DNA of 34,598 nucleotides from a virus (Duplodnaviria; Heunggongvirae; Uroviricota; Caudoviricetes), in IMG/VR virus record IMGVR_UViG_2541047807_000005. The stretch is one strand, 5' to 3'. Both the position numbers and the translations under genes were made by a program. The notes beneath the pieces were generated by a model that saw only the letters and a list, made by a program, of their open reading frames with translations, was not told where the DNA came from and did not search any database. This document shows, piece after piece, positions 3,968 to 34,340 of the stretch (position 1 is the first letter of the stretch; each line of letters begins with the position of its first letter).

Positions 3968-4266
3968 CAGGGGCTGTGCGTATCCATCAATTAAAAATTG
4001 CACCTAAGTATTTCAACGCTGTGGTTGCAGGTCAAAAGACGGCTGAACTTCGTAAAGACGATCGTGGCTATAAAGTTGGTGATGTTCTTTCTCTTTGCGA
4101 ATGGAAGCATGGCGTATTTACGGGTAGGGAATGGGCCGCGGTTATCTCTCATGTGCTTCCGGTTAATGACGTCATGGCAGTTACAGAACAATGGGTGATG
4201 CTATCAATTCGCTCATTAACCCCATTAGAAGCTTTAGGATATGTTATTGCAGGAGGTGCTGTATGA
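3964..4266 (+). CDS. ASCH/DUF3850-like domain protein
   Basis: ATG 3964 with GGAGG RBS; motif [30 protein letters not shown] typical of ASCH-like phage proteins. Confidence 0.55.
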
Positions 4267-5120
4267 GCACCATCCTGAAATGGGCGGGTAATAAAACCAC
4301 CATTATGTCCGAACTGAAAAAATACCTTCCTGCTGGCACGCGACTGGTTGAACCTTTCGCGGGTTCTTGTGCTGTGATGATGGAGACGGATTACCCCAGC
4401 TATCTGGTTGCGGATATTAATCCTGATTTAATCAACCTCTATAAAAAGGTTGCTGCTGATTGTGAGGCGTTTATATCTCGTGCCAGAGCTTTATTTGAGG
4501 AAGCAAACAGAGAGGTGGCTTATTACAACATAAGGCAGGAGTTTAATTACTCCACTGAAATTACTGATTTCATGAAAGCGGTATATTTTCTGTATCTCAA
4601 TCGTCATGGTTACCGTGGGCTATGTCGCTATAACAAGAGCGGGTATTTCAACATTCCCTACGGTAATTATAAAAATCCGTATTTCCCTGAAAAAGAAATT
4701 CGCGCATTTGCAGAGAAAGCCCAGCGGGCAACGTTTATCTGCGCCAGCTTTGATGAAACGCTGGCGATGTTGAAGGCGGGGGATGTGGTGTATTGCGATC
4801 CGCTTTATGACGGTACGTTTTCCGGCTATCACACTGATGGCTTCACTGAAGATGACCAGTATCACCTGGCATCCGTTCTTGAACATCGATCATCTGAAGG
4901 TCATCCGGTCATTGTTTCTAACAGTGACACATCCCTGATCCGTTCGCTGTATCGCAATTTTACTCACCACTACATCAAGGCAAAACGCAGCATCGGCGTG
5001 GCAGCTGGTGAGAGTAAATCTGCAACAGAAATCATCGCTGTTTCCGGGCCGCGCTGCTGGGTAGGATTTGATCCTTTGCGTGGCGTGGATTGTTCCGTCG
5101 TGTACGGAGTGCGTGCATGA
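4263..5120 (+). CDS. dam: Dam-family DNA N6-adenine methyltransferase
   Basis: N-terminus LKWAGNK...EPFAGSCAV (SAM-binding) and catalytic-motif region VVYCDPLY; ATG 4263 with GGAGG RBS. Confidence 0.85.
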
Positions 5121-7531
5121 GCCATGCTGATATGAACAACTGCAGCGGCTTTAACGAGGTCGCCGCAGCATTCTCATGGAACAGCCCGAAAAAGGCCATT
5201 AACCCTTATCTGGACCCGGCGGAAGTTGCGCCGGTTTCTGCGCTTTCAAACCTGATCACTCTGTACGCTGCCGATAACGAGCAGGAACAACTGCGCCGCG
5301 AGGCACTGAGTGATCAGGTCTGGGAGCGTTATTTCTTTAATGAATCCCGTGATCCTGTCCAACGCGAAATGGAGCAGGATAAGCTAATTAGCCGGGCAAA
5401 GCTGGCGCATGAGCAGCAGCGTTTTAATCCAGACATGGCCATTCTGGCGGACGTCAACGCCCAGCCTTCCCATATCAGCAAGCCGCTGATGCAACGTATT
5501 AAATACTTCAGCAGCCTGGGCAGGCCAAAGGCTTATTCCCGCTATTTGCGTGAGACGATTAAGCCATGCTTGGAACGACTGGAGCATGTACGCGACAGTC
5601 AGCTATCCACTTCTTTTCGCTTTATGGCAAGCCATGAAGGGCTGGACGGCCTGCTGATCCTGCCTGAAATGAGTCAGGATCAGGTGAAACGCCTGTCCAC
5701 CTTGGTAGCTGCGCATATGAGCATGTGCCTTGATACAGCTTGTGGCGATTTGTATGCCACCGATGATGTTACGCCAGAAGAAATCCGCAAGACATGGGAA
5801 AAGGTGGCAGCGGAAACCCTGCGTCTGGATGTTATCCCGCCTGCGTTTGAGCAACTTTGTCGGAAAAGAAACCGCCGTAAACCCGTGCCTTATGAACTCA
5901 TTCCGGGTTCGCTGGCGCGTATGTTATGCGCCGACTGGTGGTATCGGAAATTATGGAAGATGCGTTGCGAATGGAGGGAAGAGCAGTTGCGTGCTGTTTG
6001 CCTGGTCAGCAAAAAAGCATCTCCCTATGTCAGCTATGAAGCCGTGATGCATAAACGTGAGCAGCGCCGTAAGTCGCTGGAGTTTTTCCGTTCTCATGAA
6101 CTGGTGAACGAAGACGGCGACACGCTGGATATGGAAGACGTGGTAAACGCCAGCAGCAGCAACCCTGCGCATCGCCGCAATGAGATGATGGCCTGTGTTA
6201 AAGGTCTGGAGCTTATCGCGGAAATGCGTGGTGACTGCGCCGTTTTCTACACCATCACCTGTCCGTCACGTTTCCATTCCACGCTAAATAACGGCAGGCC
6301 CAACCCGACCTGGACAAATGCGACGGTAAGACAAAGCAGTGATTATCTGGTCGGTATGTTTGCTGCATTTCGTAAGGCGATGCACAAAGCCGGATTACGC
6401 TGGTATGGCGTGCGGGTGGCTGAGCCGCATCATGACGGTACAGTTCACTGGCACCTGTTGTGTTTTATGCGCAAAAAAGATCGCCGCGCCATTACTGCTT
6501 TGTTGCGTAAGTTTGCCATTCGTGAAGACCGCGAGGAGCTGGGTAATAACACGGAACCACGCTTTAAGTCTGAGCTGATAAACCCGCGCAAAGGTACGCC
6601 AACAAGCTACATCGCGAAATACATCAGTAAGAACATTGACGGGCGTGGTCTGGCTGGCGAGATCAGCAAGGAAACGGGTAAATCCCTGCGTGATAACGCC
6701 GAATACGTTAATGCCTGGGCGTCTTTGCATCGTGTTCAGCAATTCCGCTTCTTTGGCATTCCGGGGCGTCAGGCTTACCGTGAACTGCGATTGCTGGCTG
6801 GTCAGGCGGCAAGGCAACAGGGGGACAAAAAAGCAGGTGCGCCGGTACTGGATAACCCGCGCCTTGATGCCATCCTGGCTGCCGCTGATGCTGGCTGTTT
6901 TGCCACCTACATCATGAAGCAGGGCGGCGTACTGGTTCCCCGCAAATATCACCTCATCAGAACCGCTTATGAAATCAACGAAGAGCCGACCGCCTATGGC
7001 GATCACGGTATTCGTATTTATGGCATCTGGTCACCCATTGCAGAGGGCAAGATCTGCACTCATGCGGTGAAGTGGAAAATGGTTCGTAAGGCCGTTGACA
7101 TTCAGGAGGCGGCAGCCGACCAGGGCGCTTGCGCCCCTTGGACTCGTGGCAATAACTGTCCCCTTGCTGAAAATTTGAACCAGCAGGAGAAAGATAAATC
7201 AGCTGATGGGGACACCAGAACGGACATTATCTGCATGGATGACAAGGAGTTGCACGATTATCTGCACAGTATGAGCAAAAAAGATCGCCGGGAACTGGCA
7301 GCAAGGTTACGCCTGGTGAAACCGAAACGGCGTAAAGACTACAAACAGCGAATTACAGACCATCAGCGACAGCAGCTTGTCTATGAACTGAAGTCCAGAG
7401 GATTTGATGGCAGCGAGAAAGAGGTCGAGTTGCTCCTTCGCGGTGGCAGTATTCCGTCAGGAGCAGGCCTGCGTATCTTCTATCGGAACCAGCGTCTGCA
7501 GGAGGATGATAAATGGCGGAACATGTATTAA
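5117..7531 (+). CDS. A: Replication initiation endonuclease gpA (rolling-circle Rep)
   Basis: 804 aa; HUH-like motif VHWHLL and active-site Tyr motif YIAKYISKN; synteny after early operon. Confidence 0.9.
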
Positions 7532-7623
7532 TTACGCTGATTAACAATTCGTGCTCTTAATAATACCAGGCATATCAGGCTGATGAACGTAAAAAAACGT
7601 TTTACATCAGTAAGATTATTATA

Positions 7624-7643
7624 TACTGCAAATATAAACAGTG
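7624..7643 (+). promoter_or_regulatory. Candidate LexA (SOS) operator TACTGCAAATATAAACAGTG
   Basis: CTGC-N8-ACAG, one mismatch to CTGT-N8-ACAG consensus, ~45 bp upstream of the 7685 start; analogous to the LexA-controlled tum promoter of phage 186. Confidence 0.55.
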
Positions 7644-7684
7644 GTTATGTATACAGTATTGCTTGTGGTGTCATAGGAGGAAAA

Positions 7685-7873
7685 ATGCAGGACTATTTTT
7701 TGGAGTCTTTAAAGCTCCAGCGCATTGATTTTTTTCTTAAGCTTGTAGCGGCTAGTGAGTGTAGTGATGAAGAGAAGGGGCTGGCTTTGCAGTGGGTTTC
7801 TGAACTAACAGATGAACTCATGGCAAAAATCAGAACCCACGAATACAACCGCTCAATGGATGTCATCAGTTGA
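7685..7873 (+). CDS. Small protein (62 aa), possible Tum-like SOS-induced antirepressor
   Basis: ATG 7685 with strong AGGAGG RBS (7675-7680); downstream of LexA-box-like site; position after gene A as in 186 tum. Confidence 0.45.
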   Translation: MQDYFLESLKLQRIDFFLKLVAASECSDEEKGLALQWVSELTDELMAKIRTHEYNRSMDVIS

Positions 7874-7883
7874 GGTGACTTTT

Positions 7884-8117
7884 ATGCGCATTGAAATAAT
7901 GATCGATAAAGAGCAGAAGATTAGCCAGTCTATCCTGGACGCCCTTGAATCCGAGCTTTACCGCAATCTGCGCCCCCTGTATCCAAAAACGGTAATTCGT
8001 ATCCGCAAAGGTAGCTCTAACGGTGTGGAACTGACCGGACTGCAACTGGACGAAGAAAGAAAACAAGTGATGAAAATTATGCAGAAGGTGTGGGAAGACG
8101 ACAGCTGGCTGCATTAG
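7884..8117 (+). CDS. DinI-like protein
   Basis: 77 aa, MRIEIMIDKEQ...KVWEDDSWLH resembles DinI family; GAGGTGA RBS. Confidence 0.8.
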   Translation: MRIEIMIDKEQKISQSILDALESELYRNLRPLYPKTVIRIRKGSSNGVELTGLQLDEERKQVMKIMQKVWEDDSWLH

Positions 8118-8245
8118 AGAACGTTGCGGATGATAAAACTAGCTTTTACCATCTGCAAGGCTGAACAACGATTGTAGCGAGGTGTTAGGTGGTTCAAAAG
8201 TAAAGCGGTTATTTTGCCCGTAAAAGTGAACCACCTGTATCTTGA

Positions 8246-8986
8246 TCAGTTTTCTTTGAATTTTTCACTTAATCGTTTCGTCAATACTTCGACAGATTCT
8301 TTGCGACCGGAGAACAAGTCATTGACGACGTACTCCATAATCTCAAAAGCATCCTCAATGTCTTTGACTTTTACTTCATCGTAGGTATGGCTTCCGGCAT
8401 TTCCTAAAAATTTAATTGCCATAAGAGGTCTTGAAAACGATCCGTATAATTCAGGTAGCATCCCTAAACGGTGGTGTAGAGTTATGCGTTTGCCATTATC
8501 ATTACGTTCAGCTACATCCATAGCGGTTAGCATTCTTTCAACTGAAATTCGAATTAGGTTTGCTGCTGCGCCAGGCTGTATTAGGAAAATGGAAAATGAG
8601 GCTTCAAGCGGTTCGGTAATTTCTTCTGGGCATTTTTCAGGTATTTCGAAAGGATGCAGTGATGGGTAAAAGGTGAAAGGTCTGTGCCATTGATAGTACT
8701 CAATATCATTTCTTTCTTCATCCCAACCTTGTTCCCATCCACTCTTACCAGTACAGGCCACAACTTCACCACATTGCATTCTTGAACAGCGGGCCATGCA
8801 ACTGAAAATAGATGAATCCATTTCTAGTTCAAACCAATCTTCACTGCGGAATTTTCGGGTATCATGTGTGTCATACGAGACGAAACTTTCTTTAATGATC
8901 TGTAGGGTTTTCTGATTGCAGTTAGGGCAGGGCCACTCAACCTGCATATCGTGGAAAAACGCACCAGAGAGCTTGTGCACAGTCAT
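8246..8986 (-). CDS. Hypothetical Cys-rich protein (246 aa) at the tin/old accessory position; candidate defence gene
   Basis: ORF with GAGGAA RBS; N-terminal CPNC...C-x3-C-x4-C-x5-C cluster; AT-rich versus phage core; opposite strand to gene A. Confidence 0.6.
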   Translation of the reverse strand: MTVHKLSGAFFHDMQVEWPCPNCNQKTLQIIKESFVSYDTHDTRKFRSEDWFELEMDSSIFSCMARCSRMQCGEVVACTGKSGWEQGWDEERNDIEYYQWHRPFTFYPSLHPFEIPEKCPEEITEPLEASFSIFLIQPGAAANLIRISVERMLTAMDVAERNDNGKRITLHHRLGMLPELYGSFSRPLMAIKFLGNAGSHTYDEVKVKDIEDAFEIMEYVVNDLFSGRKESVEVLTKRLSEKFKEN

Positions 8987-9187
8987 TCTTTGTGTTCCTC
9001 ATTTTTATGATTGGTAGGGATTGTATCTTCATACACGATTACAGTTGCATTAAAGATAAGCCATAGCAAGCTACTGGAAAAGAGACGAAACAGCTGGGCA
9101 TATCAGATGTTTTTTCTTAAGGTAAGTTGTTGTGCATGCCTATACTGCATGAGATTGCATGATCGTTTGAGGATCGTTATTGCTAAG

Positions 9188-9212
9188 GCCCACCAGAACT
9201 GGCGGGCTTTTG
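9188..9212 (+). terminator. Terminator-like hairpin (GCCCACCAG-aa-CTGGCGGGC then TTTT)
   Basis: 9-bp GC-rich stem with one mismatch followed by T run, inside the cos-containing intergenic region. Confidence 0.35.
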
Positions 9213-9256
9213 CGTAGAGCATGCAGGTGCATGAAAACAACTACATAAAGCGGGCA

Positions 9257-9275
9257 GGCGTGGCGGGGATACGAT
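9257..9275. other. Candidate cos cohesive-end sequence GGCGTGGCGGGGATACGAT
   Basis: Matches the 19-nt P2/186 cohesive end as I recall it (GGCG[A/T]GGCGGGGAAAGCA[C/T]) at about 14 to 16 of 19 positions; located upstream of portal Q as expected. Confidence 0.5.
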
Positions 9276-9344
9276 TGCGCGCAGAAGATTATTATTGGTA
9301 CACTGTCGGTGACTCTCTACGCAGATCTTACACATTAATTTCTA

Positions 9345-10157
9345 ATGGGGCATGCTATGATCTTTCTAAGTCATAATCACCGTGACAAAAGGTTTGTAAG
9401 TGTTATAGCGGAAAAACTAGCAGATGTTTATGGGCGTGATAACGTATTCTACGATTCTTGGTCTATCCAACCCGGAGAGGGTATTATTGACAAGATGAAT
9501 TTAGGAATGGAGAATGTATCGTTCTTTTTCTTTTTTGTCACAGAAAATAGCTTGGCAAGTAACATGGTAAAAATGGAATGGCAAAATGCTTTAATTAAGG
9601 CATCGTCCGGGAAGTGTAAATTTATACCAATACGTTGCCAGAATATATCCTTGCCTGCTCTGCTTACTCAAACGCTATATATTGATCTTTATTCGTATGG
9701 GATCGATGTGGCAATAAGACAAATTATAGATGTCATTAATCAACAAAATACGTATATTCCTAATCCTGAGAAGTATTCAAACCTCTCCTATGATATTAAG
9801 GATGATGATGGGGGTAAGATAGTGAAATTATCAGCAATGGATTTTTTAGAACCAATTGCTGATTTTATGATGATTATGGATAATACAATTAAGCATGATG
9901 ATGTTGTTGTTATGGTCAATGGAGAAAGCTCATTCACTCAGGGGTTTATTGAAAATGCATCTTTAGAAAATGGTATGAAAGTAAGTGGTGCCACTGTTGG
10001 CCTAAATCGGGGGTTAACACCAACGATGCCAATGTATGTTTCTCTTAGGTTAAAGGATGGTTCACCTTTGAATATATTTGCGGTGCTACATCGAGTAAGT
10101 ACCGAGCGTTATGCTCCTATACCACATAAAGCCGATGATGCCTTTAGAGTAAAATAA
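9345..10157 (+). CDS. TIR-domain protein (270 aa) with uncharacterised C-terminal domain; candidate anti-phage effector
   Basis: N-terminal region IFLSHNHRDKRFV...DSWSIQPGEGIIDKM...FFFFFVTENSLASNMVKMEW matches bacterial TIR pattern; AT-rich; between cos-like site and portal gene. Confidence 0.7.
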   Translation: MGHAMIFLSHNHRDKRFVSVIAEKLADVYGRDNVFYDSWSIQPGEGIIDKMNLGMENVSFFFFFVTENSLASNMVKMEWQNALIKASSGKCKFIPIRCQNISLPALLTQTLYIDLYSYGIDVAIRQIIDVINQQNTYIPNPEKYSNLSYDIKDDDGGKIVKLSAMDFLEPIADFMMIMDNTIKHDDVVVMVNGESSFTQGFIENASLENGMKVSGATVGLNRGLTPTMPMYVSLRLKDGSPLNIFAVLHRVSTERYAPIPHKADDAFRVK

Positions 10158-10166
10158 AAAGCAATA

Positions 10167-10192
10167 TGGTGGCTATATAATTAAGGCCACCA
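10167..10192. terminator. Hairpin between convergent TIR gene and portal gene (TGGTGGC...GCCACCA)
   Basis: 7-bp inverted repeat with 12-nt loop flanked by AT-rich sequence; possible bidirectional terminator. Confidence 0.3.
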
Positions 10193-10201
10193 ATTTATAT
10201 C

Positions 10202-11230
10202 TCATAAACAATAGGATGAAAATGCAATAACTTTCTCACCCAGCCAATGGTTTAACTCCTCCATGCGTTTCTGTAATGGCAAAAGTTCATTGCGCACAAA
10301 CACATTTGCGGCCTTCTCCACATCCCCAAACCCTCCAACATTATTAGGCATAATCCCCATCATTTGCGGCGGCACGCGGTGCGCAGCCATCATGTCATCA
10401 CGGCTCACGTTCTTGATATTCAAAAACTCATCCTTCGCCGCCACCTCTGACAACGGGATAATCTGAAGCCCGTCCTTTTTGCCGTTAGGCGAGTACATAA
10501 ACAGGTTGCGGAAGTTACCCGGACCTTTGGCACTTTTCATTGCATTGCGGAGGTTGTTCACGTCCTCCTGGTTCTGCGCAGCATCGGTCATGTACATGAT
10601 GAAGCCTGCATGACTACCGTTAATGTAATACTTGCGGCGGAACAGCGTGGCGGACTCATTGAGCAGGGCGGACGGAATGGCAGAAAGATAGCCGGGCAGG
10701 CCGTAGATTTCCTGGTTAATGTCCGGTTCCATCAGATGAAAAATGCTGCCTTTCGTGAACTGATACGGCTGGGTTGTCATACCGTATTGCACAAACCAGT
10801 AGGTATCCAGGTCTAACCCGCGTCGGGTGTATTTTGCCAGAGCAGGCTCAAGGGCGATAACTTCACCGAAGCGGTTCGTGCGTTTCTCCAGGTAGGCGTT
10901 ACCAAATACCAGATAGTCCTGCACAAAACGTGAAAAAGCCTGCTGGCTGAGCAGCGGGTGAGGGATGTAGGTACTGGTCAGAATGTTGCATTTCACCGCA
11001 ATTGGTGAACTGTGATGCACGGCGGCGCGGAAGGTGCGCGCCAGTCCGTCAAAGCTTACTGGCGGCTCATACCAGCGATCTGTCTGTACGCATTCCACAT
11101 AGTCCAGTAGTTCGCGGCGATCCAGAACAGGAACGGGATCACCGAAGCTGAATGCTTCGGCTGTAGTTTGACTTTTATGCCGGATCTGGTTTGTCGACGC
11201 AGCGCGGTTCTTCTTACTCTTTCCCATCAA
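10202..11230 (-). CDS. Q: Portal protein gpQ
   Basis: 342 aa, P2 gpQ-like size and synteny; 4-nt overlap with terminase stop. Confidence 0.9.
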   Translation of the reverse strand: MMGKSKKNRAASTNQIRHKSQTTAEAFSFGDPVPVLDRRELLDYVECVQTDRWYEPPVSFDGLARTFRAAVHHSSPIAVKCNILTSTYIPHPLLSQQAFSRFVQDYLVFGNAYLEKRTNRFGEVIALEPALAKYTRRGLDLDTYWFVQYGMTTQPYQFTKGSIFHLMEPDINQEIYGLPGYLSAIPSALLNESATLFRRKYYINGSHAGFIMYMTDAAQNQEDVNNLRNAMKSAKGPGNFRNLFMYSPNGKKDGLQIIPLSEVAAKDEFLNIKNVSRDDMMAAHRVPPQMMGIMPNNVGGFGDVEKAANVFVRNELLPLQKRMEELNHWLGEKVIAFSSYCL

Positions 11231-12993
11231 AAAATCTCCACAATATTACTGGTATTGGCGGACTCGCCCTGCAGTGGTTCGTTAAACAGTGCGTGCATTG
11301 TTGCCCAGGCCAGATCGGCGTGGCTGGCTTCTTCGCTGCGGCTGGCTTCATAGGTCGGGCGGTTGCCGCTGGCAGTGGTGGCGCGACGGATTGCCATAAA
11401 GGACTGCGCTATGTCGGTGTGCCCGGCGTCAAACTCCAGGCGGCGGTGGCTAATAATGTCGTAGGCCTTGAGTACCAGGGCGTTTTTAACGTTGGGGTTG
11501 TAGACAAACTCCCGGACGGCAGGAAAAAACGCTTTCACGTTCTCGTAAACCCCGTGACCGACGCCGGTTGAGTCGATACCGATGTATGTCACGTTGTACT
11601 GTTCAGTCAGTTTTTTGATGGCGTCAGCCTGGGCGCGGAAGTCCATCCCGCGCCACTGGTGACGCTCAAGAATGCGGAACTTACCGCCCGGCACGGCTGG
11701 CGGTGCCACCACCACGCACCCGGCGCTGTCGCCGTTTTGCGTACCTTTTGCCGGGTCATAACCGATCCACACTTCGCGCCAGCCAAACGGGCGCAGGGCC
11801 AGTGCATGAAAGTCGGTCCAGACTTCCCAACTGTCCACCATGCACGCCTGCAGCTCGCTGAGCGGGAACACGGACGCGAAATCGTCCACAAACTCGCACA
11901 TCAGCAGGTTCTGGTATTCGTCCGGGCTGTACTCCATGCGCAACTGATCGAGGTCGAAAAGGTTACATCCGCCGCGCACTGCATCTTCCACGGTGACTAT
12001 CTGGCGGTATTGCCCGTCTGCGCACAGCAGGCCGGGGGCCAGATTGCTGTGGGACAGGTCGATGTCCACCTTATCGGCTTTATTGCGCCCACGGTTGAAC
12101 AGCGCACCGGACCAGAACGGATAAGCACTGTGTGTCAGGCTGGATGGCGTGGAAAAATAGGTTTGTCGCCATTTTTTGTGAATAGCCATACCGGAAGCCA
12201 CTTTGCGCAGCTCCTGGAATTTCGGTATCCAGAAATATTCATCCAGATACAGGTTGCCGTGGTAACTCTGGGCCGTGCGGGCATTGGTGCCGAGGAAGTA
12301 AAGCGTGGCTCCGTTAGGAAGCACCATCGGATCGCCTTTCAGCTCCACCTCGACTTCTTTGGCGAAGTCTATGATGTACTGCTTAAAGACGTGAGCCTGT
12401 GCCTTGCTGGCGGAAAGAAAAATCTGGTTACGTCCGGTAAGCAGAGCGTCAATCAGGGCTTCACGGGCAAAGTAAAAGGTCGCGCCGATCTGGCGTGACT
12501 TCAGCAGGTTGCGGATGCGGTTGGTTTTTCCGGCTTCCCACCAGTGGCGCTGGTAGTTGAACATGGAGGAATGGAAGATTTCTTCCAGCTTCTCAATCTG
12601 CTCATCGGTGAAAACATTCTTTTCCGGCTGACGGCGCGGGCCTTTGTTGCGGTTGGCGACGTTAGGGTTTAAGTCGGCTTCGTTGCCGCCATTGTTAAAC
12701 TTGCCGATCCGCGCGTGGCGTTCCGACTGGCGCGCCAGCAGGTCAATCTCTTTGAAATCTTTCCCTTCTTTGTGCTCCTTCATAATGAGCTGGCAGTAGC
12801 GTGCGGCGGTGGTGAGCTGCATCTGATCCAGCGGCCCATAGTCACCCCACTTGTCGCGTTTTTTCCAGCTGTGAACGGTTGCAACTTTCTCGCCCAGCAT
12901 TTCAGCAATGCGGGCTACGCGGTATCCCTGAAAGTACAGCAGCATGGCCTGCCGACGGGGATCGAGATCTGCGGGTGTCAGTGTGGTGTTCAT
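11227..12993 (-). CDS. P: Terminase large (ATPase) subunit gpP
   Basis: 588 aa, synteny divergent from O; P2 gpP-like. Confidence 0.9.
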   Translation of the reverse strand: MNTTLTPADLDPRRQAMLLYFQGYRVARIAEMLGEKVATVHSWKKRDKWGDYGPLDQMQLTTAARYCQLIMKEHKEGKDFKEIDLLARQSERHARIGKFNNGGNEADLNPNVANRNKGPRRQPEKNVFTDEQIEKLEEIFHSSMFNYQRHWWEAGKTNRIRNLLKSRQIGATFYFAREALIDALLTGRNQIFLSASKAQAHVFKQYIIDFAKEVEVELKGDPMVLPNGATLYFLGTNARTAQSYHGNLYLDEYFWIPKFQELRKVASGMAIHKKWRQTYFSTPSSLTHSAYPFWSGALFNRGRNKADKVDIDLSHSNLAPGLLCADGQYRQIVTVEDAVRGGCNLFDLDQLRMEYSPDEYQNLLMCEFVDDFASVFPLSELQACMVDSWEVWTDFHALALRPFGWREVWIGYDPAKGTQNGDSAGCVVVAPPAVPGGKFRILERHQWRGMDFRAQADAIKKLTEQYNVTYIGIDSTGVGHGVYENVKAFFPAVREFVYNPNVKNALVLKAYDIISHRRLEFDAGHTDIAQSFMAIRRATTASGNRPTYEASRSEEASHADLAWATMHALFNEPLQGESANTSNIVEIF

Positions 12994-13135: not shown

Positions 13136-13969
13136 ATGACAGTGAAAGCAAAGCGTTTTCGCATCGGGGTGGAAGGTGCCACCACCGACGGACGCGAAAT
13201 CCAGCGTGAATGGCTGGAACAGATGGCAGCCAGCTACAACCCGGCGGTGTATACCGCGCTGATTAACCTTGAGCACATCAAGTCTTATCTGCCGGACAGC
13301 ACCTTTAACCGCTACGGCAAGGTGACGGCGCTGTTTGCTGAAGAAATCACGGAAGGTCCGCTGGCAGGCAAGATGGCGCTGTATGCCGACGTTGAGCCAA
13401 CGGAATCTCTGGTGGAGCTGGTGAAAAAAGGCCAGAAATTATTCACCTCTATGGAAGTCAGCCCGAAGTTTGCTGATACGGGCAAAGCCTATCTGGTCGG
13501 CCTGGCTGCCACTGATGATCCCGCCAGTCTGGGTACGGAAATGCTGACATTCAGCGCCAGTGCAGCCCATAACCCGCTGGCAAACCGCAAGCAGAATCCC
13601 GCCAATCTTTTTACCGCTGCAGAGGAAACGGTGATCGAACTGGAAGAAATCCAGGATGACAAACCGTCCCTGTTTGCCCGTGTCACGGCGCTGTTCACCA
13701 AAAAAGAGCAGTCCGATGACGCCCGGTTCTCTGATGTGCATAAGGCCGTGGAGCTGGTCGCCACTGAGCAGCAGAACCTGAGCGCACGCACCGAAAAATC
13801 CCTGTCTGAGCAGGAAGAACGTCTGTCTGAGCTGGAGACTGCCCTGCAGGCACAGCAGACCGCCTTTAACGAACTGGTGAATAAGCTGAGTCATGAAGAC
13901 AGCCGCCAGGACTACCGCCAGCGTGCAACAGGCGGTAACGCCCCCGCTGACACTCTGACCAATTGCTGA
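13136..13969 (+). CDS. O: Capsid scaffolding protein gpO
   Basis: 277 aa, synteny, ACGGAG RBS. Confidence 0.85.
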   Translation: MTVKAKRFRIGVEGATTDGREIQREWLEQMAASYNPAVYTALINLEHIKSYLPDSTFNRYGKVTALFAEEITEGPLAGKMALYADVEPTESLVELVKKGQKLFTSMEVSPKFADTGKAYLVGLAATDDPASLGTEMLTFSASAAHNPLANRKQNPANLFTAAEETVIELEEIQDDKPSLFARVTALFTKKEQSDDARFSDVHKAVELVATEQQNLSARTEKSLSEQEERLSELETALQAQQTAFNELVNKLSHEDSRQDYRQRATGGNAPADTLTNC

Positions 13970-13985
13970 TGGAGCACAAAACCTG

Positions 13986-15044
13986 ATGAAGAAGAATACC
14001 CGCTTTGCTTTTAACGCTTACCTGCAGCAGCTGGCGTGTCTGAACGGTGTGGCAGTTGAAGAACTGTCCAGCAAGTTCACCGTGGAGCCGTCTGTGCAGC
14101 AGACGCTGGAAGACCAGATCCAGCAATCCGCCGCTTTCCTGACGCTGATTAACGTCACGCCAGTGACCGAGCAGTCTGGTCAGCTGCTGGGGCTGGGTGT
14201 TGGCAGCACCATTGCCGGAACCACTGACACCACCGCGAAAGAGCGTGAACCTGTCGATCCTACGCTGATGGTCGATGTGGAATACAAATGCGAGCAGACC
14301 AACTTTGACACGGTACTGACCTACGCGAAGCTGGACCTGTGGGCGAAGTTTCAGGATTTCCAGGTGCGTATCCGTGACGCCATCGTGAAACGTCAGGCAC
14401 TGGACCGCATCATGATCGGCTTTAACGGCGTGAAGCGTGCGAAAACCTCCAACCGTAGCGAAAACCCGCTGCTGCAGGATGTGAATAAAGGCTGGCTGCA
14501 GAAAATCCGTGAGGATGCACCGGATCACGTCATGGGCAGCACCACCACGGGTGGTGAAACCACACCGGGTGCGGTGAAAGTCGGGAAAGGTGGCGAATAT
14601 GCCAACCTGGACGCTGTGGTGATGGATGCGGTCAATGAGCTTATCGACGTGGTCTACCAGGACGATGACGATCTGGTGGTGATTTGCGGTCGTGAACTGC
14701 TGTCTGACAAGTATTTCCCGCTGGTCAACAAAGAGCAGGAAAACAGTGAAAAACTGGCAGCCGATATGATTATCAGTCAGAAACGCATGGGCGGTCTGCA
14801 GGCCGTGCGTGCGCCGTTCTTCCCGCCGAATGCGCTGCTGATCACCCGTCTGGATAACTTGTCCATCTACTGGCAGGAAGACACCCGCCGCCGTTCAGTT
14901 ATCGACAACCCGAAACGTGACCGGATTGAAAACTTTGAATCCGTTAATGAAGCCTATGTGGTTGAGGACTACCGCTGCGCCGCACTGGTGGAAAACATCC
15001 AGATTGGTGATTTCAGCGCCGCCGCAGCCGAAACCGGAGCGTAA
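13986..15044 (+). CDS. N: Major capsid protein gpN
   Basis: 352 aa, synteny and size match P2 gpN. Confidence 0.9.
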   Translation: MKKNTRFAFNAYLQQLACLNGVAVEELSSKFTVEPSVQQTLEDQIQQSAAFLTLINVTPVTEQSGQLLGLGVGSTIAGTTDTTAKEREPVDPTLMVDVEYKCEQTNFDTVLTYAKLDLWAKFQDFQVRIRDAIVKRQALDRIMIGFNGVKRAKTSNRSENPLLQDVNKGWLQKIREDAPDHVMGSTTTGGETTPGAVKVGKGGEYANLDAVVMDAVNELIDVVYQDDDDLVVICGRELLSDKYFPLVNKEQENSEKLAADMIISQKRMGGLQAVRAPFFPPNALLITRLDNLSIYWQEDTRRRSVIDNPKRDRIENFESVNEAYVVEDYRCAALVENIQIGDFSAAAAETGA

Positions 15045-15047
15045 TCC

Positions 15048-15698
15048 ATGAGCCTGAGTCCCGCACGGCAGCATCGCCTGCGCGTTCAGGCTGAACAGGC
15101 CGCCCGCGAGGGCGGCAGTGTTCGCCACGCATCGGGCTATGACCTGATGCTGCTGCAACTGGCGGAAGACCGCCGCCGTCTCAAGGGCGTTCAGTCCACG
15201 GTCAAAAAAGCGGAAATCAAGGTGGAGCTGCTGCCGAAGTACGCCGCCTGGGCAGAGGGTGTCCTGGCTGCCGGAGGCGCTCAACAGGATGACGTGCTGA
15301 TGTACGTGATGCTGTGGCGCATTGATGCCGGAGATTATGCCGGGGCGCTGGAGATCGGGCGTCACGCCCTGCGTCATGGCTGGGTGATGCCGTTGGGTAA
15401 CCGCAACGTGCAGACCGTGCTGGCAGAGGAAATGGCAGACGCGGCGCAGAGCGCAATGCTTGCCGCCACCGGCTTTGATGCTGATCTGTTGCTGCAGACG
15501 CTGGAGCTGACAGACGGTCTGGATATGCCGGACCAGTCACGGGCACGTCTGCATAAAGCGATTGGCGCTGTCCTGAGTGAAAGCAATCCGGCTTCCGCCC
15601 TTAATCATCTCAACCATGCGTTACAGCTCGATCCCCGCTGTGGCGTGAAAAAAGACAAACAGCAGCTGGAGCGCAGACTGCGCAATGACAGCCGCTGA
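15048..15698 (+). CDS. M: Terminase small/endonuclease subunit gpM
   Basis: 216 aa, synteny after N. Confidence 0.8.
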   Translation: MSLSPARQHRLRVQAEQAAREGGSVRHASGYDLMLLQLAEDRRRLKGVQSTVKKAEIKVELLPKYAAWAEGVLAAGGAQQDDVLMYVMLWRIDAGDYAGALEIGRHALRHGWVMPLGNRNVQTVLAEEMADAAQSAMLAATGFDADLLLQTLELTDGLDMPDQSRARLHKAIGAVLSESNPASALNHLNHALQLDPRCGVKKDKQQLERRLRNDSR

Positions 15699-18578: not shown

Positions 18579-19316
18579 TCATTCATTGTCAAATAATTTT
18601 TGCTCTTTCAATATTTGTGTCGAAAAATTATTGCTTATTAATTTTACAAGCTTGCCGCACAAATTAAATGAATATCTAAAATAATCTAAGTCAGGGATGA
18701 GGTATTCTTTTTCTTCAGAGGATATTCCTGCCTCTAATAATTTTTTTTCATATCTTTGGTCCTTCACCCAATTATTATGGACTCCTGTGTCTCGTCTTGC
18801 TTTAATTTCAATGTATTGTTTTAAGAGATGTTCTATTTTCTTTTTGTCTAAGCATAAGAGTTTGCATAATTTATTGATGTATTCTTTGGGTGATCCAAAT
18901 GTGAGACTCGCGACTCCTTCGTTGACTAGATAGTCAAAAAGTTCATCTTCAGATAATGACTTAAACACCCCATAATCACACTTAATTTTATTTAGTTTTT
19001 CTGGATTGATCCTGAAGGTCAACTTCATGATTTCAATAATGTAATCTTCAAATGCTGAAACAAGCGAACTAAAGCACAATGATGGCATATGTTTTGTTAT
19101 TAAATCATGCCGTATTCCTTTATCTGAGATTTCAGGTGAATGTTTTTCCAGAAAGCATTCAAGATTTGTATAAGCCTCATAAAGCTGAGGGTTAGTTTCC
19201 TCATTGGCGTGAGAGATGGCAATGTTTTGAAATATAATTGTTCTGAATAAAATATCAGCTTTAATAAAATATGATGATGTGATTTTATCCAGGAAGAGAT
19301 AATTATCGGAGTGCAT
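18579..19316 (-). CDS. AT-rich moron protein (245 aa) with R-x4-H HEPN-like motif; candidate abortive-infection/toxin RNase
   Basis: ORF opposite to the late operon between S and V; GAGGAA RBS; motif ARRDTGVH at residues 174-180 (coords ~18777-18797); strongly AT-rich. Confidence 0.6.
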   Translation of the reverse strand: MHSDNYLFLDKITSSYFIKADILFRTIIFQNIAISHANEETNPQLYEAYTNLECFLEKHSPEISDKGIRHDLITKHMPSLCFSSLVSAFEDYIIEIMKLTFRINPEKLNKIKCDYGVFKSLSEDELFDYLVNEGVASLTFGSPKEYINKLCKLLCLDKKKIEHLLKQYIEIKARRDTGVHNNWVKDQRYEKKLLEAGISSEEKEYLIPDLDYFRYSFNLCGKLVKLISNNFSTQILKEQKLFDNE

Positions 19317-29847: not shown

Positions 29848-30329
29848 TGATGGTGCTGGGATTGTACGTGTTTATGCTGCGCACCGTGCCGTATCAGGAA
29901 CTGCAGTATCAACGCAGCTGGCGACATGCGGCAAACAGCCGGGTAAACCGTCGTCCGTCCACGCAGTTTCTGGGACCGGAAAACGATATGCTGACGCTTT
30001 CCGGTGTTCTTATGCCGGAGATAACAGGCGGCAGGCTGTCGTTGCTGGCACTGGAGCAGATGGCAGAACAGGGGAAAGCATGGCCCCTGATTGAAGGCAG
30101 CGGCACGATTTACGGCATGTATGTGATTGAGGGACTGAATCAGACTAAAACGGAGTTTTTCCGCGACGGTATGCCGCGCCGGATTGAGTTCACCCTGTCG
30201 CTAAAACGGGTGGATGAATCCCTGTCCGATATGTTCGGTGATCTCAGTACTCAACTGAATAATCTGCAGGACACGGCAACGTCTGCTTTAAGCGATATCA
30301 GTAAAACGGTGGGAGGGCTGCTGTCGTGA
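29844..30329 (+). CDS. U: Tail protein gpU
   Basis: 161 aa, overlaps T stop, synteny. Confidence 0.8.
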   Translation: MMMVLGLYVFMLRTVPYQELQYQRSWRHAANSRVNRRPSTQFLGPENDMLTLSGVLMPEITGGRLSLLALEQMAEQGKAWPLIEGSGTIYGMYVIEGLNQTKTEFFRDGMPRRIEFTLSLKRVDESLSDMFGDLSTQLNNLQDTATSALSDISKTVGGLLS

Positions 30330-31434
30330 ATTTCAGCTCTGAACTGCTTAACAAAGGCAACAAAACTCCGGCATTCAGCATCAGTGTTGAGGGCAGGGAT
30401 ATCACCACTGTGCTGGACAACCGCCTGATGGGGCTTACGCTGACGGATAACCGGGGCTTTGAAGCGGACCAGCTTGATCTGGAGCTGGACGACGCTGATG
30501 GAAAAATCGTGCTGCCGCGCCGTGGTGCGGTCATTACGCTGGCGCTGGGCTGGAAGGGACAGCCGCTTTTCCCGAAAGGGGCATTCACGGTGGACGAGAT
30601 TGAACACACTGGCGCACCGGACCGCCTGACCATCCGGGCGCGAAGTGCTGATTTTCGGGAAACGCTGAATACCCGCCGTGAAAAATCGTGGCACAAGACC
30701 ACGGTCGGGGAAGTGGTGAAGGAAATAGCTGCGCGGCACAAACTGAAGATGGCACTGGGTAAAGACCTGTCGGATAAGCCCGTGGAACATATAGACCAGA
30801 CCAATGAGAGTGACGGCAGTTTTCTGATGCGGCTGGCGCGCCAGTACGGTGCTATTGCGTCGGTGAAAAATGGCAATCTGTTATTCATCCGGCAGGGACA
30901 GGGCAAAAGCGCCAGCGGTAAACCTCTGCCGGTGATCACTATCACACGCAAGGACGGCGACAGTCACCGCTTTACCCTGGCAGATCGCGGAGCCTATACG
31001 GGCGTAATTGCCAGTTGGTTGCATACCCGCGAACCCGCGAACCCGCGAAGAAAGAAAGCACCACGGTGAAGCGTAAGCGCAGGACCGCAAAGCAGAAGAA
31101 AGAGCCGGAAGCGAAGCAGGGCGATTACCTGGTGGGTACGGATGAAAACGTGCTGGTACTTAATCGCACTTATGCCAACCGGAGCAACGCCGAACGGGCA
31201 GCGAAAATGCAGTGGGAACGCCTGCAACGCGGCGTTGCATCATTCTCGCTACAACCGGCGGAAGGGCGGGCAGATCTCTACACAGAAATGCCTGTGAAGG
31301 TCAGTGGCTTTAAACAGCCGATAGATGATGCGGAATGGACCATTACGACTCTGACGCATACCGTCAGCCCGGATAACGGTTTTACGACCAGTCTGGAGCT
31401 TGAAGTGAGGATTGATGATTTCGAAATGGAATGA
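30326..31434 (+). pseudogene. D: Tail protein gpD, interrupted by frameshift at an 8-bp tandem repeat (two ORFs 30326..31069 and 31015..31434)
   Basis: The two ORFs together equal P2 gpD length (~386 aa) and both resemble gpD; removing one CCCGCGAA copy fuses the frames. Confidence 0.75.
31026..31049 (+). repeat. Tandem octamer CCCGCGAA x3 within gene D
   Basis: Three perfect direct copies at 31026-31033, 31034-31041, 31042-31049. Confidence 0.9.
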
Positions 31435-31524
31435 TTCTTCGCAATGGAGAACTTTTAAGTTTGCAAAATGGAATGATGCGGTATCATTATTGTGAATTTA
31501 GCAAAAATGGGGAGAACTCGAAAA

Positions 31525-31743
31525 ATGATGATTTGCCCACTGTGCGGAAGTGCCGCCCATACTCGCAGCAGTTTTCAGGTATCTTCATTGACCAAAGAGC
31601 GTTACAACCAGTGCCAGAACATTAACTGCAGCCATACTTTTGTTACCCATGAAACTTTTGTTCGTTCGATTGCAACGCCAAAAGAGTCAAATCCGGTTCA
31701 GCCGCATCCAATGAAATCAGGACAGGTGGCGCTCTCTCTTTGA
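31525..31743 (+). CDS. ogr: Ogr late-gene transcriptional activator (zinc finger)
   Basis: 72 aa from ATG 31525; CPLCGSAAH...ERYNQCQNINCSHTF matches P2 Ogr pattern. Confidence 0.85.
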   Translation: MMICPLCGSAAHTRSSFQVSSLTKERYNQCQNINCSHTFVTHETFVRSIATPKESNPVQPHPMKSGQVALSL

Positions 31744-31823
31744 CGCTGCCGCCATTTTGTCGCCATCGTTAAAAAACAGTGCTTCTAACGTCATGATTTT
31801 AAACGGCATAAATTTCAGGCAAC

Positions 31824-31866
31824 AAAAAACCCATCAACCTTGAACCGAAATGGCGGGGTTGATGGG
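31824..31866 (-). terminator. Intrinsic terminator on minus strand, likely for ybjL
   Basis: 10-bp inverted repeat CCCATCAACC / GGTTGATGGG with a U run on the minus strand, ~110 nt past ybjL stop. Confidence 0.5.
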
Positions 31867-31978
31867 CTCCACAAAATGGGGACATCAAAGAAAAGCAGTG
31901 GCACTAATTAAGACTGATGCCCTGCGGAAAAGTTCTGCGGTTGTGCAAAAAAATTTCATTTTCAGGGCAACTTCAGTT

Positions 31979-33664
31979 TTATCCTAATCCTGGCCATACC
32001 ATGACGATGATTGTCCCTGCCAGCGTCAGCAGGACGTTGGCGATTGCATAGGTGCCCGCATAGCCCAGCGCCGGGATGTTACTGCGAGCTGTATCACTGA
32101 TGATCTCCATTGCCGGCGCGCAGGTGCGTGCGCCCATCATTGCGCCGAACAACAGTGCGCGGTTCATTCGCAATACATAAGCACCGAACAAGAAACAGAT
32201 AACCACTGGCACAAGACTGACAATTAATCCGGCAATCAACATCTGACCGCCAATCGTGCCCAGGCCGTTATTAATACCGCTACCGGCGCTCAGACCAACG
32301 CCTGCCATAAACACCATTAAGCCGAACTCTTTCACCATGCTTAATGCACCCTGCGGAATGTAACCGAAGGTCGGGTGGTTAGCGCGCATAAATCCCAGCA
32401 TAATTCCGGCGAATAACAACCCGGCAGCGTTCCCCATGCCGAAACTGAATGTGCTGAACTGGAAGGTGATCATCCCGATCATCAGCCCAATAACAAAGAA
32501 GGCGCAGAATGCCAGCAAGTCAGTGACCTGGCTATGAATCGAGATAAAGCCGATGCGATCGGCGATGGTTTTTACGCGACGGGCATCGCCGCTGACTTGT
32601 AAAACGTCACCTTTGTTAAGCACGACGTTGTCATCTATCGGCATCTCAATCTGGCTACGAATGACGCGGTTAAGGAAGCAACCGTGATCGGTCAACTTCA
32701 GTTGTGCGAGACGTTTGCCAACGGCGTTATGGTTTTTAACGACCACTTCTTCAGTGACGATACGCATGTCGAGAAGGTCACGATCGAAAACTTCTTTGCC
32801 GTTACGGAAGCTGGGATCGAGTCGGGCGTGGGCGTCGGGATAGCCTACCAACGCTATTTCATCGCCCATTTGTAGCACAGCATCACCGTCTGGATTCGCC
32901 AGAATCCCGTTACGTCGAATACGTTCAATGTAGCAGCCAGTTTGTCGATAAATACCCAGTTCACGCAGATTTTTGCCGTCGGTCCAGGCCACCAGCTCCG
33001 GGCCGACGCGGTAGGCGCGGATCACCGGTAAATAAACCTTACGGTTGGCATCAGTGTCCAGGCCACGTTCGCGGGCGATTTGCTGGGCGCTGGTCTGTAA
33101 GTCCTGATGCTGCAATTTCGGCAAGTAACGCGCACCAACAATCAAACTCACCAGACCGATTAAATAGGTTAAGGCATACCCGAGGCTCAGATTATCCAGT
33201 GCCAGTGAGAGCTGCCTGCTTTCCATGCCGGAATGACGCAGTGTATCGCCAGCACCGACCAGAACCGGTGTTGACGTCATAGAGCCAGCTAACATACCGG
33301 CCGTCAGGCCAATATCCCAGCCAAACAGCTTACCTAACCCTAAGGCGATCACCAGCGCACTGCCAACCATCACCAGTGCTAACATTAGGTAATTTTTCCC
33401 ATCGCGAAAAAAAATGGAAAAAAAGTTCGGTCCGGCTTCGACCCCGACGCAGAAAATAAACAGCATAAAGCCAAGATTAAGCGCGTCGGTGTTAATGCTG
33501 AAATGTTGTTGGCCTAATAACAGCGATACGACTAAAACGCCAATGGAATTACCCAGTTGGATCGAACCAAGTCGTAATTTCCCGAGACATAGCCCAAGCG
33601 CGAGGACCACAAATAATAACAGAATGTAATTCCCATTTAACAATTCGGCGACGTTTATATTCAC
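31979..33664 (-). CDS. ybjL: Putative transport protein YbjL (YidE/YbjL family)
   Basis: 561 aa multi-pass membrane protein; sequence recalled as E. coli YbjL. Confidence 0.85.
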
Positions 33665-33933
33665 GGAGGCTAACTTCTTGTTTACTAGTAAGCTGTTGAA
33701 AGAAATGGTAATTTACGATAATGTTTTTTACCAGAATTCAGGGCGCAGATTCATTCAGCGCACCTAAACGATAGTAAAGTAACAATATATTTTACTAGTG
33801 TAATCACATTAGGTATCAACGGCTATATGAATTGCGTTGGCCTATATTAGCATGGAATGCGAAGCGGCTTTATCTTACTGAACGCCACACTGGCGAAAAA
33901 TGTGTTCGATAGACGCAGTGTCAGGAGGAACGA

Positions 33934-34311: not shown

Positions 34312-34330
34312 AGCCCTCAACGCGAGGGCT
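34312..34330 (-). terminator. Hairpin AGCCCTC-aacgc-GAGGGCT between ybjM and grxA, likely grxA terminator
   Basis: 7-bp GC-rich stem, T-rich tract on the minus strand after the stem. Confidence 0.4.
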
Positions 34331-34340
34331 TGTCAGACGA

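What the first reader, a model, noticed from the sequence alone, without database searches (positions are those of the whole stretch)
9257..9275. cos-like cohesive-end sequence lies inside the cargo intergenic region
GGCGTGGCGGGGATACGAT resembles the 19-nt P2/186 cohesive end as I remember it. Its location means the TIR gene is at the left genome end (between cos and Q) and the 246-aa gene at the right end. The adjacent hairpin at 9188-9212 could belong to the packaging recognition region or terminate transcription entering cos.
Basis: partly seen in the sequence, partly recalled or inferred. Interest (0 to 1): 0.45.

Follow-up and report, generated by a model that had tools for sequence, protein, structure and literature searches.

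The report
Packaging (cos) site of P2-like prophage
The 19-base sequence is the DNA-packaging cut site (cos) of a P2/186/Fels-2-type prophage of E. coli, in its usual place between two accessory gene slots, so the finding is correct but ordinary.

Summary
Confirmed and ordinary. GGCGTGGCGGGGATACGAT is at 9257-9275 and occurs once in the window (0.01 expected by chance). It matches the annotated cohesive ends of phage 186 at 16/19, P2 at 14/19 and Salmonella phage SEN8 at 18/19.

It lies in a block (9128-9284) conserved in Fels-2-type phages. The core of that block (9224-9282) aligns base for base with the cos junctions of P2, 186, PSP3 and the satellite P4.

The setting is canonical for the P2 family: gpA, DinI, right-end cargo (DUF4145, 246 aa), cos, left-end cargo (TIR), portal Q, terminase P; the small terminase M lies further right. 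That cos lies inside this P2 defence hotspot is already published (Rousset 2022).

The hairpin at 9186-9212 has terminator shape only in the Fels-2 lineage. Its inner CCAG..CTGG dyad is older. Its role, terminator or terminase recognition, stays open.

Extras:
- Five conserved (T)GCATG boxes lie on the right-end side of cos.
- The window's cos block is a recombinant whose crossover maps to 9252-9274, essentially the cohesive end itself.
- Tail gene D carries an 8-nt repeat frameshift.

The parts
9257..9275 (+). 19-nt cohesive-end sequence (cos nick-to-nick segment). The inferred top-strand nick is 9256|9257 and the bottom-strand nick 9275|9276, giving 5' overhangs.
   Evidence: 16/19 to annotated 186 cos, 14/19 to P2 cosL, 18/19 to the SEN8 putative cos. 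Unique in the window, chance 0.01. Cut geometry is taken from the 186 record note 'top strand cut at 5' end and bottom strand cut at 3' end'.
9224..9282 (.). Core cos region conserved across the whole P2 family, P4 included: AGGTGCATgAAAAC..AAAGCGGGCA | 19-mer | TGCGCGC.
   Evidence: 10-phage alignment of cos junctions. Column conservation 0.83-0.96 over 117 sequences. [quoted passage not shown]
9128..9284 (.). Extended cos block conserved in Fels-2-type phages and prophages, about 129 bp on the right-genome-end side and 28 bp on the left-end side. Both flanks are variable cargo.
   Evidence: BLAST matches in 58-84 phage records start at about 9128-9134 and stop at about 9282-9285, whatever the flanking genes. 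The block begins 75 nt after the DinI stop in phages with no right-end cargo.
9133..9162 (+). Three TGCATG boxes (9133, 9146, 9156). Candidate terminase (small subunit) recognition repeats; this role is inferred.
   Evidence: 4 of the window's 9 TGCATG hexamers fall in the 129-bp block, Poisson P about 5e-9. The boxes are conserved in P2, P4, 186 and PSP3 and in 61-77% of 117 sequences.
9218..9234 (+). Second pair of boxes, AGCATGCAGGTGCATGA. It repeats the GCATG-N5-GCATG doublet of 9147-9162 with the same 10-nt spacing.
   Evidence: the repeat finder family D2. The 9228 box is TGCAT in 98% of 117 sequences.
9186..9212 (+). GC-rich inverted repeat followed by TTTT, i.e. terminator shape on the + strand. 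The inner dyad CCAG-N2-CTGG is shared with 186, PSP3 and P4.
   Evidence: Folding. Family comparison. Pair counts: 90% of cells paired, against 24-58% when the partner is slid, but only 2 double-sided changes. The simple terminator scan did not call it, probably because of the A.C mismatch.
9161..9178 (+). Direct repeat GATCGTT x2, 11 nt apart: two Dam (GATC) sites inside the cos block.
   Evidence: the repeat finder family D5. GATC is kept at both places in 40-41 of 43 Fels-2-type blocks but not in the 186 or P2 types. The prophage encodes a D12-class adenine methylase at 4191-5120.
8246..8986 (-). Right-end cargo gene (246 aa, DUF4145), transcribed away from cos like P2 old.
   Evidence: Pfam PF13643, 4.9e-13. 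Weak PADLOC PD-T7-4 match. Same gene in SEN8 (SEN8_49) and in E. coli prophages.
9357..10157 (+). Left-end cargo gene (TIR-domain protein, 266 aa from the RefSeq start; the longest ORF starts at 9345), between cos and Q.
   Evidence: Pfam TIR_2, 4.1e-23. RefSeq product name in E. coli genomes.
10202..12993 (-). Portal Q (10202-11230) and large terminase P (11227-12993), the enzyme that should cut this cos.
   Evidence: Pfam Phage_portal, and Terminase_5 + Terminase_6N + Terminase_6C.
15048..15698 (+). Small terminase M, the presumed cos-recognition subunit.
   Evidence: Pfam Phage_term_smal, 2.2e-40.

Best explanation
This is the cos (cohesive end) site of a Fels-2/186-like member of the P2 family (Peduoviridae), integrated in E. 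coli next to ybjL/ybjM.

Proposed mechanism:
- After induction, the phage terminase (small subunit M at 15048-15698, large subunit P at 11227-12993) recognises the conserved block 9128-9284.
- It nicks the top strand between 9256 and 9257 and the bottom strand between 9275 and 9276.
- Packaged DNA then carries 19-nt 5' overhangs.
- The left end starts at 9257 (TIR gene, then Q, P and so on). The right end stops at 9275, preceded by the DUF4145 gene.
- After injection the ends anneal and are ligated.

What is shown: the homology of the 19-mer and both flanks to experimentally defined cos sites, the gene context and the conservation pattern.

What is inferred: the exact nick positions (by alignment to P2, 186 and PSP3 records); the idea that the TGCATG boxes and the dyad on the right-end side are the terminase binding part, analogous to lambda cosB; and the idea that the hairpin plus T-run also stops rightward transcription (A/DinI operon) before it crosses cos.
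For: - The 19-mer matches 186, P2 and SEN8 cos at 16, 14 and 18 of 19, and is unique in the window with chance 0.01.
- The cos junctions of the window, SEN8, Fels-2, RE-2010, 813R9, MLG42, 186, PSP3, P2 and P4 align from about -125 to +26 around the nick. Shared elements are TGCAT boxes, a dyad, AAAAC..AAAGCGGGC(A/G)|GGCG(T/A)GGCGGGGA and (T/C)GCGCGC.
- Conservation over 117 sequences peaks at 0.95-0.96 over the nick and 19-mer and falls to about 0.5 beyond 9284.
- The gene order gpA-DinI-cargo-cos-cargo-Q-P-O-N-M is the P2-family order.
- The block stays constant while the cargo on either side varies among phage records and E. coli genomes.
- Published: P2 and P4 share a core cos signal, and the P2 hotspot between gpA and gpQ is adjacent to cos (PMC9122126).
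Against: - There are no virion-end data for this prophage or for any Fels-2-type cos in the material I could reach. The SEN8 site was assigned by annotation only (PMC5427200).
- The exact variant, T at position 19 followed by T, is in no deposited phage genome; the best match has 2 mismatches in 38. It does occur in other E. coli prophages and in 2 of 116 viral contigs.
- Gene D is frameshifted in this copy, so the prophage may be decaying.
- The hairpin stem has an A.C mismatch here.
Confidence: 0.9

Rival explanations
1. The site is a homologous but no longer functional relic: the prophage is defective and this cos variant is not cut by its terminase.
For: Gene D carries an 8-nt tandem-repeat expansion that truncates it at 247 aa. 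The T19/T20 variant is absent from deposited phage genomes. The hairpin has a mismatch.
Against: Every family-wide conserved position of the core is intact. T at positions 19 and 20 is the state in the functional 186 and PSP3 cos. The same variant occurs in independent E. coli prophages that carry different right-end cargo. Portal, both terminase subunits, scaffold and capsid ORFs are full length. A D defect affects tails, not cos cutting.
Confidence: 0.07
2. The conserved block is kept for expression of the flanking cargo genes (shared promoters, a small RNA or a terminator) rather than for packaging, and the 19-mer resemblance is a side effect.
For: The block lies between divergent cargo genes and holds a terminator-shaped hairpin.
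Against: The block is the same next to unrelated cargo genes in either orientation, and also where there is no right-end cargo at all. No Rfam family matches. The promoter scan finds nothing above background. The most conserved part is the 19-mer and nick flanks shared with P2, 186 and P4, where the ends are known.
Confidence: 0.02
3. Concerning the hairpin 9186-9212 only: it is mainly a terminase or host-factor recognition dyad of cos, not a transcription terminator.
For: An inverted repeat sits at the same distance from the nick in 186, PSP3 and P4 without a T-run. P4 keeps the helix in the same register with two compensatory pairs. In 186 the annotated terminator t95b lies further upstream, 161-188 nt before the end. 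The inner pairs are kept in 61-89% of 186- and P2-type sequences.
Against: P2 itself has no such dyad. In the Fels-2 type the stem is extended, GC-rich and followed by at least 5 T of 8 in 36 of 43 sequences. In phages without right-end cargo it is the only terminator-like element after DinI. The covariation test is inconclusive.
Confidence: 0.35

Closest known systems
cos of coliphage 186 / PSP3 (Eganvirus): GGCGTGGCGGGGAAAGCAT
   Same: The first 13 bases are identical, and so are T at position 19 and the following TGCGCGC. The left flank AAAGYGGGCA is shared. Both have TGCAT boxes and a CGCCAG..CTGGCG dyad at the same distances, the same position relative to portal and terminase genes, and the same CI/CII/Tum(DinI)-type control region in the prophage.
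   Different: Positions 14, 16 and 17 differ (ATACG against AAAGC). 186 has no gene between cos and the portal gene. Its terminator t95b lies upstream of the block rather than inside it.
Fels-2-type cos (Felsduovirus: Fels-2, RE-2010, SEN8; also Klebsiella and Yersinia relatives): GGCGTGGCGGGGATACGAG
   Same: 18/19 in the 19-mer and 88-93% identity over the whole 9128-9284 block, including the hairpin with T-run and two GATC sites. There are cargo genes on both sides. The right-end cargo and the 9000-9256 stretch are 91% identical to SEN8.
   Different: Position 19 and the next base are T,T here against G,C. No deposited phage has this combination. The left-end cargo (TIR) differs.
cos of P2 and satellite P4: GGCGAGGCGGGGAAAGCAC (ends determined chemically; functional dissection by Ziermann & Calendar 1990, cited in PMC9122126 and PMC3931495)
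   Same: Same 19-nt length, the same GGCG-GGCGGGGA core, the same flanks and the same map position. P2 old/tin occupy the same right-end slot as the DUF4145 gene.
   Different: 14/19 identity. P2 lacks the dyad/hairpin and has no left-end cargo.
Defence hotspot next to cos in P2-like phages (Rousset et al. 2022, PMC9122126)
   Same: Variable anti-phage-type cargo between gpA and gpQ, directly next to cos.
   Different: That paper treats gpA-gpQ as a single locus. Here cos splits it into two slots that reassort independently.

Membership tests
P2-family cos site | A 19-nt GC-rich sequence homologous to the experimentally determined cohesive ends of P2, 186 and P4 | tested here: met
   16/19 to 186, 14/19 to P2, 13/13 at the 5' part to 186. 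Chance expectation 0.01.
P2-family cos site | Conserved flanks of the roughly 55-bp core: TGCAT-AAAAC...AAGCGGGC(A/G) before the top-strand nick and (T/C)GCGCGC after the bottom-strand nick | tested here: met
   Alignment with 9 reference junctions and with 116 viral contigs.
P2-family cos site | Map position between the right-end accessory region (after gpA and tum/DinI) and the leftward-transcribed portal (Q) and terminase (P) genes | tested here: met
   Pfam assignments compared with the P2 and 186 records.
P2-family cos site | P2-type terminase in the same element: gpP with the Terminase_5 N-terminal domain, and gpM as small subunit | tested here: met
   PF06056 + PF03237 + PF17289 in 11227-12993; PF05944 in 15048-15698.
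P2-family cos site | Staggered cleavage in vivo that gives 19-nt 5' overhangs on packaged DNA | not testable with these tools
   Needs virion or capsid DNA. The closest phage with the site at its record start (SEN8) was set by annotation only.
Rho-independent terminator (hairpin 9186-9212) | A GC-rich stem-loop directly followed by a U-run on the transcribed strand | tested here: inconclusive
   A 10-pair stem with one A.C mismatch, then TTTTGCGT; -20.2 kcal/mol, z = -2.4. The consensus scan did not call it. Relatives have a perfect stem and at least 5 T of 8 in 36 of 43 sequences.
Rho-independent terminator (hairpin 9186-9212) | Pairing maintained by compensatory change | tested here: inconclusive
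   90% of cells paired, but only 2 double-sided changes; shuffle control 43-52 of 500.
Rho-independent terminator (hairpin 9186-9212) | A same-strand transcription unit ending just upstream | tested here: inconclusive
   This holds in 813R9 and MLG42, where DinI stops 75 nt before the block. In the window the gene immediately upstream (8246-8986) is on the opposite strand.
Terminase-binding repeat array (lambda cosB-like) | Repeated short motif beside the nick site, conserved among phages with related terminases | tested here: met
   Five (T)GCATG boxes, P about 5e-9 to 1e-7, conserved family-wide.
Terminase-binding repeat array (lambda cosB-like) | Binding by the small terminase subunit | not testable with these tools
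   Needs footprinting or EMSA with gpM.

The most novel reading that the evidence does not exclude
The cohesive end may itself be the exchange point at which P2-like phages re-assort their two cargo slots. The window's cos block is a recombinant. It is identical to DUF4145-carrying prophages up to 9274 and to TIR-carrying prophages from 9252 (or 9244) rightward. Five further recombinants among viral contigs have crossover intervals that all contain the 19-mer, and none maps to the -130..-40 part of the block. The novel reading is that this arises when a right end of one genome anneals and is ligated to a left end of another (cos-end joining, speculated in Rousset 2022). The ordinary alternative is homologous recombination in the longest identical stretch. 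My data show the location of the exchange but cannot separate the two mechanisms.
Probability: 0.25. Interest if true: 0.5.

Novelty: already known. Interest (0 to 1): 0.15.

Why it matters
Fixing the cos position gives the mature genome ends of this prophage. It also shows that the gpA-gpQ 'hotspot' is really two slots, one at each end of the virion DNA: DUF4145 at the right end and TIR at the left. That is useful for annotation and for designing cos-plasmid or transduction experiments, but it adds no new biology. The only part with some wider interest is that cargo exchange between P2-like phages maps to the cohesive-end core, which makes an earlier speculation about cos-mediated recombination directly testable.

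Tried and rejected
- I could not obtain the functional dissection of P2/P4 cos (Ziermann & Calendar 1990) or the Christie & Calendar P2 review. Three reviews that cite the former gave no detail on P2 cos. Statements about which flank terminase binds are therefore my inference from conservation.
- I looked for deposited phage genomes whose record ends coincide with this site, as a proxy for physical ends. Only SEN8 does, and its cos was assigned by annotation.
- An Rfam scan of 7500-10400 gave only a chance-level snoRNA hit.
- The promoter and terminator consensus scan found nothing above shuffle background and did not call the hairpin.
- The covariation test of the hairpin within the Fels-2-type group was not significant.
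- Folding the whole block as DNA gave z = -1.6, so there is no evidence for an overall structure.
- Chance match is rejected.
- A P4-type satellite cos is rejected on context: gpA and Q/P flank the site.
- I considered Dam control of packaging through the two GATC sites. Their conservation is no higher than that of the surrounding block, so it stays a note only.

Full report
**1. The observation**

The 19-mer GGCGTGGCGGGGATACGAT is at 9257-9275. It occurs once in the window, even with three mismatches allowed. The annotated 186 cos 19-mer, searched with up to three mismatches, finds only this place. Dinucleotide-preserving shuffles give 0.01 hits on average.

Against annotated cohesive ends it scores as follows:
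- 16/19 with phage 186 (NC_001317 1-19, 'cos; cohesive end; top strand cut at 5' end and bottom strand cut at 3' end');
- 14/19 with P2 cosL (NC_001895 1-19);
- 18/19 with the 'putative cos site' of Salmonella phage SEN8 (KT630647.2 1-19).

The SEN8 record ends exactly at the base that corresponds to window 9256. Its last 257 bases are 91% identical to window 9000-9256.

**2. Context**

Pfam scans give the standard P2-family prophage map:

| Coordinates | Strand | Gene |
|---|---|---|
| 1-1194 | - | integrase |
| 1434-2090 | - | CI-type repressor |
| 2408-2926 | + | CII |
| 4191-5120 | + | Dam-type methylase |
| 5090-7531 | + | gpA |
| ends 8117 | + | DinI/Tum-like |
| 8246-8986 | - | DUF4145 gene, 246 aa |
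| 9257-9275 | + | cos |
| 9357-10157 | + | TIR_2 gene |
| 10202-11230 | - | portal Q |
| 11227-12993 | - | large terminase P |
| 13136-13969 | + | scaffold O |
| 13986-15044 | + | ORF in the gene N (capsid) position; not scanned |
| 15048-15698 | + | small terminase M |
| (between) | | tail genes |
| 31492-31743 | + | ogr |

To the right of ogr lie the host genes ybjL and ybjM.

The + strand of the window runs in the same direction as the P2 and 186 maps. Hence the TIR gene is at the mature left end, between cos and Q. The 246-aa gene is at the right end and is transcribed away from cos, like P2 old.

The segment 8200-10250 is 100% identical in four complete E. coli genomes. The element is therefore an E. 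coli prophage.

**3. Anatomy of the cos region**

I rebuilt the circular junctions of SEN8, 186, PSP3, P2 and P4 from their record ends and took the internal sites of Fels-2, RE-2010, vB_EcoM-813R9 and vB_YpM_MLG42. All of them align with the window from about -125 to +26 relative to the top-strand nick. In window coordinates the shared elements are:
- three TGCATG boxes at 9133, 9146 and 9156;
- an inverted repeat around CCAG-N2-CTGG at 9186-9209;
- a second pair of boxes at 9218-9234;
- AAAAC..AAAGCGGGCA (9236-9256) directly before the nick;
- the 19-mer;
- TGCGCGC (9276-9282).

The two nick flanks are partly symmetric: GCGGGCA| on the top strand, and |TGCGCGC whose reverse complement is GCGCGCA. 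I read this directly from the sequence.

A scan of viral contigs with the core pattern gave 116 further unique sites. Column conservation is 0.95-0.96 across the nick and 19-mer. It is 0.83-0.86 over 9222-9251 and about 0.7-0.8 over the boxes and the dyad. It drops to about 0.5 beyond 9284.

Four of the window's nine TGCATG hexamers lie in the 129 bp left of the nick (Poisson P about 5e-9).

BLAST against phage genomes shows that the block 9128-9284 is the only part of 9000-10300 shared with Fels-2, RE-2010, SopEPhi and many Klebsiella, Yersinia and E. coli relatives. The sequence on both sides is variable.

The block is strongly asymmetric, with about 129 bp on the side that becomes the right genome end and 28 bp on the left-end side. 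I infer that the right-end side carries the recognition part for terminase, with the boxes as the best candidates for small-subunit sites. This is inference. I could not retrieve the original functional dissection.

**4. The hairpin**

The stem is 9186-9195 paired with 9200-9209. It has one A.C mismatch in this copy and is followed by TTTT (-20.2 kcal/mol, z = -2.4).

In the 43 Fels-2-type sequences:
- the stem is usually perfect (-18 to -24 kcal/mol);
- pairs are kept in 84-100% of sequences;
- 36 of 43 have at least 5 T among the next 8 bases.

In the 186- and P2-type groups only the inner four to six pairs are moderately kept and there is no T-run. P2 itself has no dyad. P4 keeps a 7-pair helix in the same register, with two compensatory pairs but no T-run.

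In 186 the annotated terminator t95b lies upstream of the block. In 813R9 and MLG42 the block begins 75 nt after DinI and the hairpin is the only terminator-like element there.

The formal pair count within the Fels-2-type group is not decisive. It shows 90% of cells paired, against 24-58% when the partner is slid, but only two double-sided changes.

My reading has three parts:
- an old dyad of the cos flank was extended into an intrinsic terminator in the Fels-2 lineage;
- there it stops rightward transcription of the A/DinI operon before cos;
- a role in terminase recognition is not excluded, at about 35%.

**5. What is known**

P2, P4 and their relatives share a core cos signal with 19-nt 5' overhangs (PMC3931495; PMC9122126). 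Rousset et al. 2022 already describe the region between gpA and gpQ of P2-like phages as a defence hotspot directly adjacent to cos, and a 2026 study repeats this.

The finding is therefore a correct identification of a known element in a known place. The only sequence peculiarity is T,T at position 19 and the next base (the 186 state) in an otherwise Fels-2-type 19-mer. No deposited phage genome has this combination. It occurs in other E. coli prophages and in 2 of 116 viral contigs.

**6. Extra: cos as the exchange point**

In E. coli genomes the two cargo genes occur separately. TIR is found with other right-end cargo, and DUF4145 with other left-end cargo. Aligning them gives these results:
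- The window is identical to the DUF4145 prophages from before 9108 up to 9274, apart from one base at 9239 in one of the two, and it first differs from both at 9275.
- The window is identical to the TIR prophages from 9252 (or 9244) rightward, and differs densely to the left of that.

The crossover that made this prophage therefore lies in 9252-9274, which is essentially the cohesive end.

Among 115 unique sites, 22 pairs share only the left flank and 49 share only the right flank. Six recombinants for which both parents are present have crossover intervals that all contain the 19-mer. None maps to the -130..-40 part of the block.

This fits two mechanisms equally well. One is homologous recombination in the longest identical stretch. 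The other is joining of cohesive ends from two genomes, as speculated in PMC9122126. I cannot separate them, and the pairs are not independent events.

**7. Other observations**

Gene D is split. A third copy of the 8-nt unit ACCCGCGA (31025-31032) shifts the frame relative to the intact 367-aa gene of strain SCU-115. This copy may therefore be tail-defective, or the assembly may carry an error. That matters for the proposed induction experiment but not for cos cutting.

Two GATC sites (9161, 9172) lie in the cos block of a phage that encodes its own Dam-type methylase.

**8. Verdict**

The element is an already known kind in its expected place, so interest is low (0.15). The most novel reading still open is cos-end joining as the mechanism of cargo re-assortment (probability about 0.25, interest 0.5 if true).

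Noticed in passing
window 9108-9380, compared with L135-L138 and L015-L134: The window's cos block is a recombinant. It matches DUF4145-carrying prophages up to 9274 and TIR-carrying prophages from 9252/9244 onward. Five more recombinants in viral contigs also have crossover intervals that contain the 19-mer. So the two cargo slots reassort at the cohesive-end core.
   Followed up: partly
window 30326-31434 (repeat at 31025-31048): Tail/late-control gene D is frameshifted by a third tandem copy of the 8-nt unit ACCCGCGA. The ORF stops at 31069 (247 aa), against an intact 367-aa gene in E. coli SCU-115. The prophage may be tail-defective, or this may be an assembly error.
   Followed up: partly
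window 9161-9178 and 4191-5120: Two GATC sites 11 nt apart (GATCGTT x2) lie in the cos block and are kept in 40-41 of 43 Fels-2-type blocks. The prophage encodes a D12-class adenine methylase. A link to packaging, as at P1 pac, is pure speculation.
   Followed up: partly
window 8246-8986 (-) and 9357-10157 (+): The cargo genes look like single-gene defence candidates. The DUF4145 protein has a weak PADLOC PD-T7-4 match (1.6e-5). The TIR_2 protein has an uncharacterised C-terminal half of about 150 aa and only weak matches to TIR-NLR, PDC-S66 and ThsB models.
   Followed up: no
window 31750-34598: The window runs about 2.8 kb past the prophage into host DNA: ybjL (31979-33664, -) and ybjM (33934-34311, +). 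The right attachment site should lie between ogr (ends 31743) and ybjL.
   Followed up: no
window 18579-19316 (-): A 245-aa ORF on the minus strand lies among the plus-strand late genes and has no Pfam match. It may be another cargo insertion.
   Followed up: no
viral contigs L015-L134, positions 19 and 20 of cos: Position 19 of the 19-mer and the base after it are in complete linkage across 116 sites (G-C, T-T or C-T). No G-T or T-C combination was seen.
   Followed up: no
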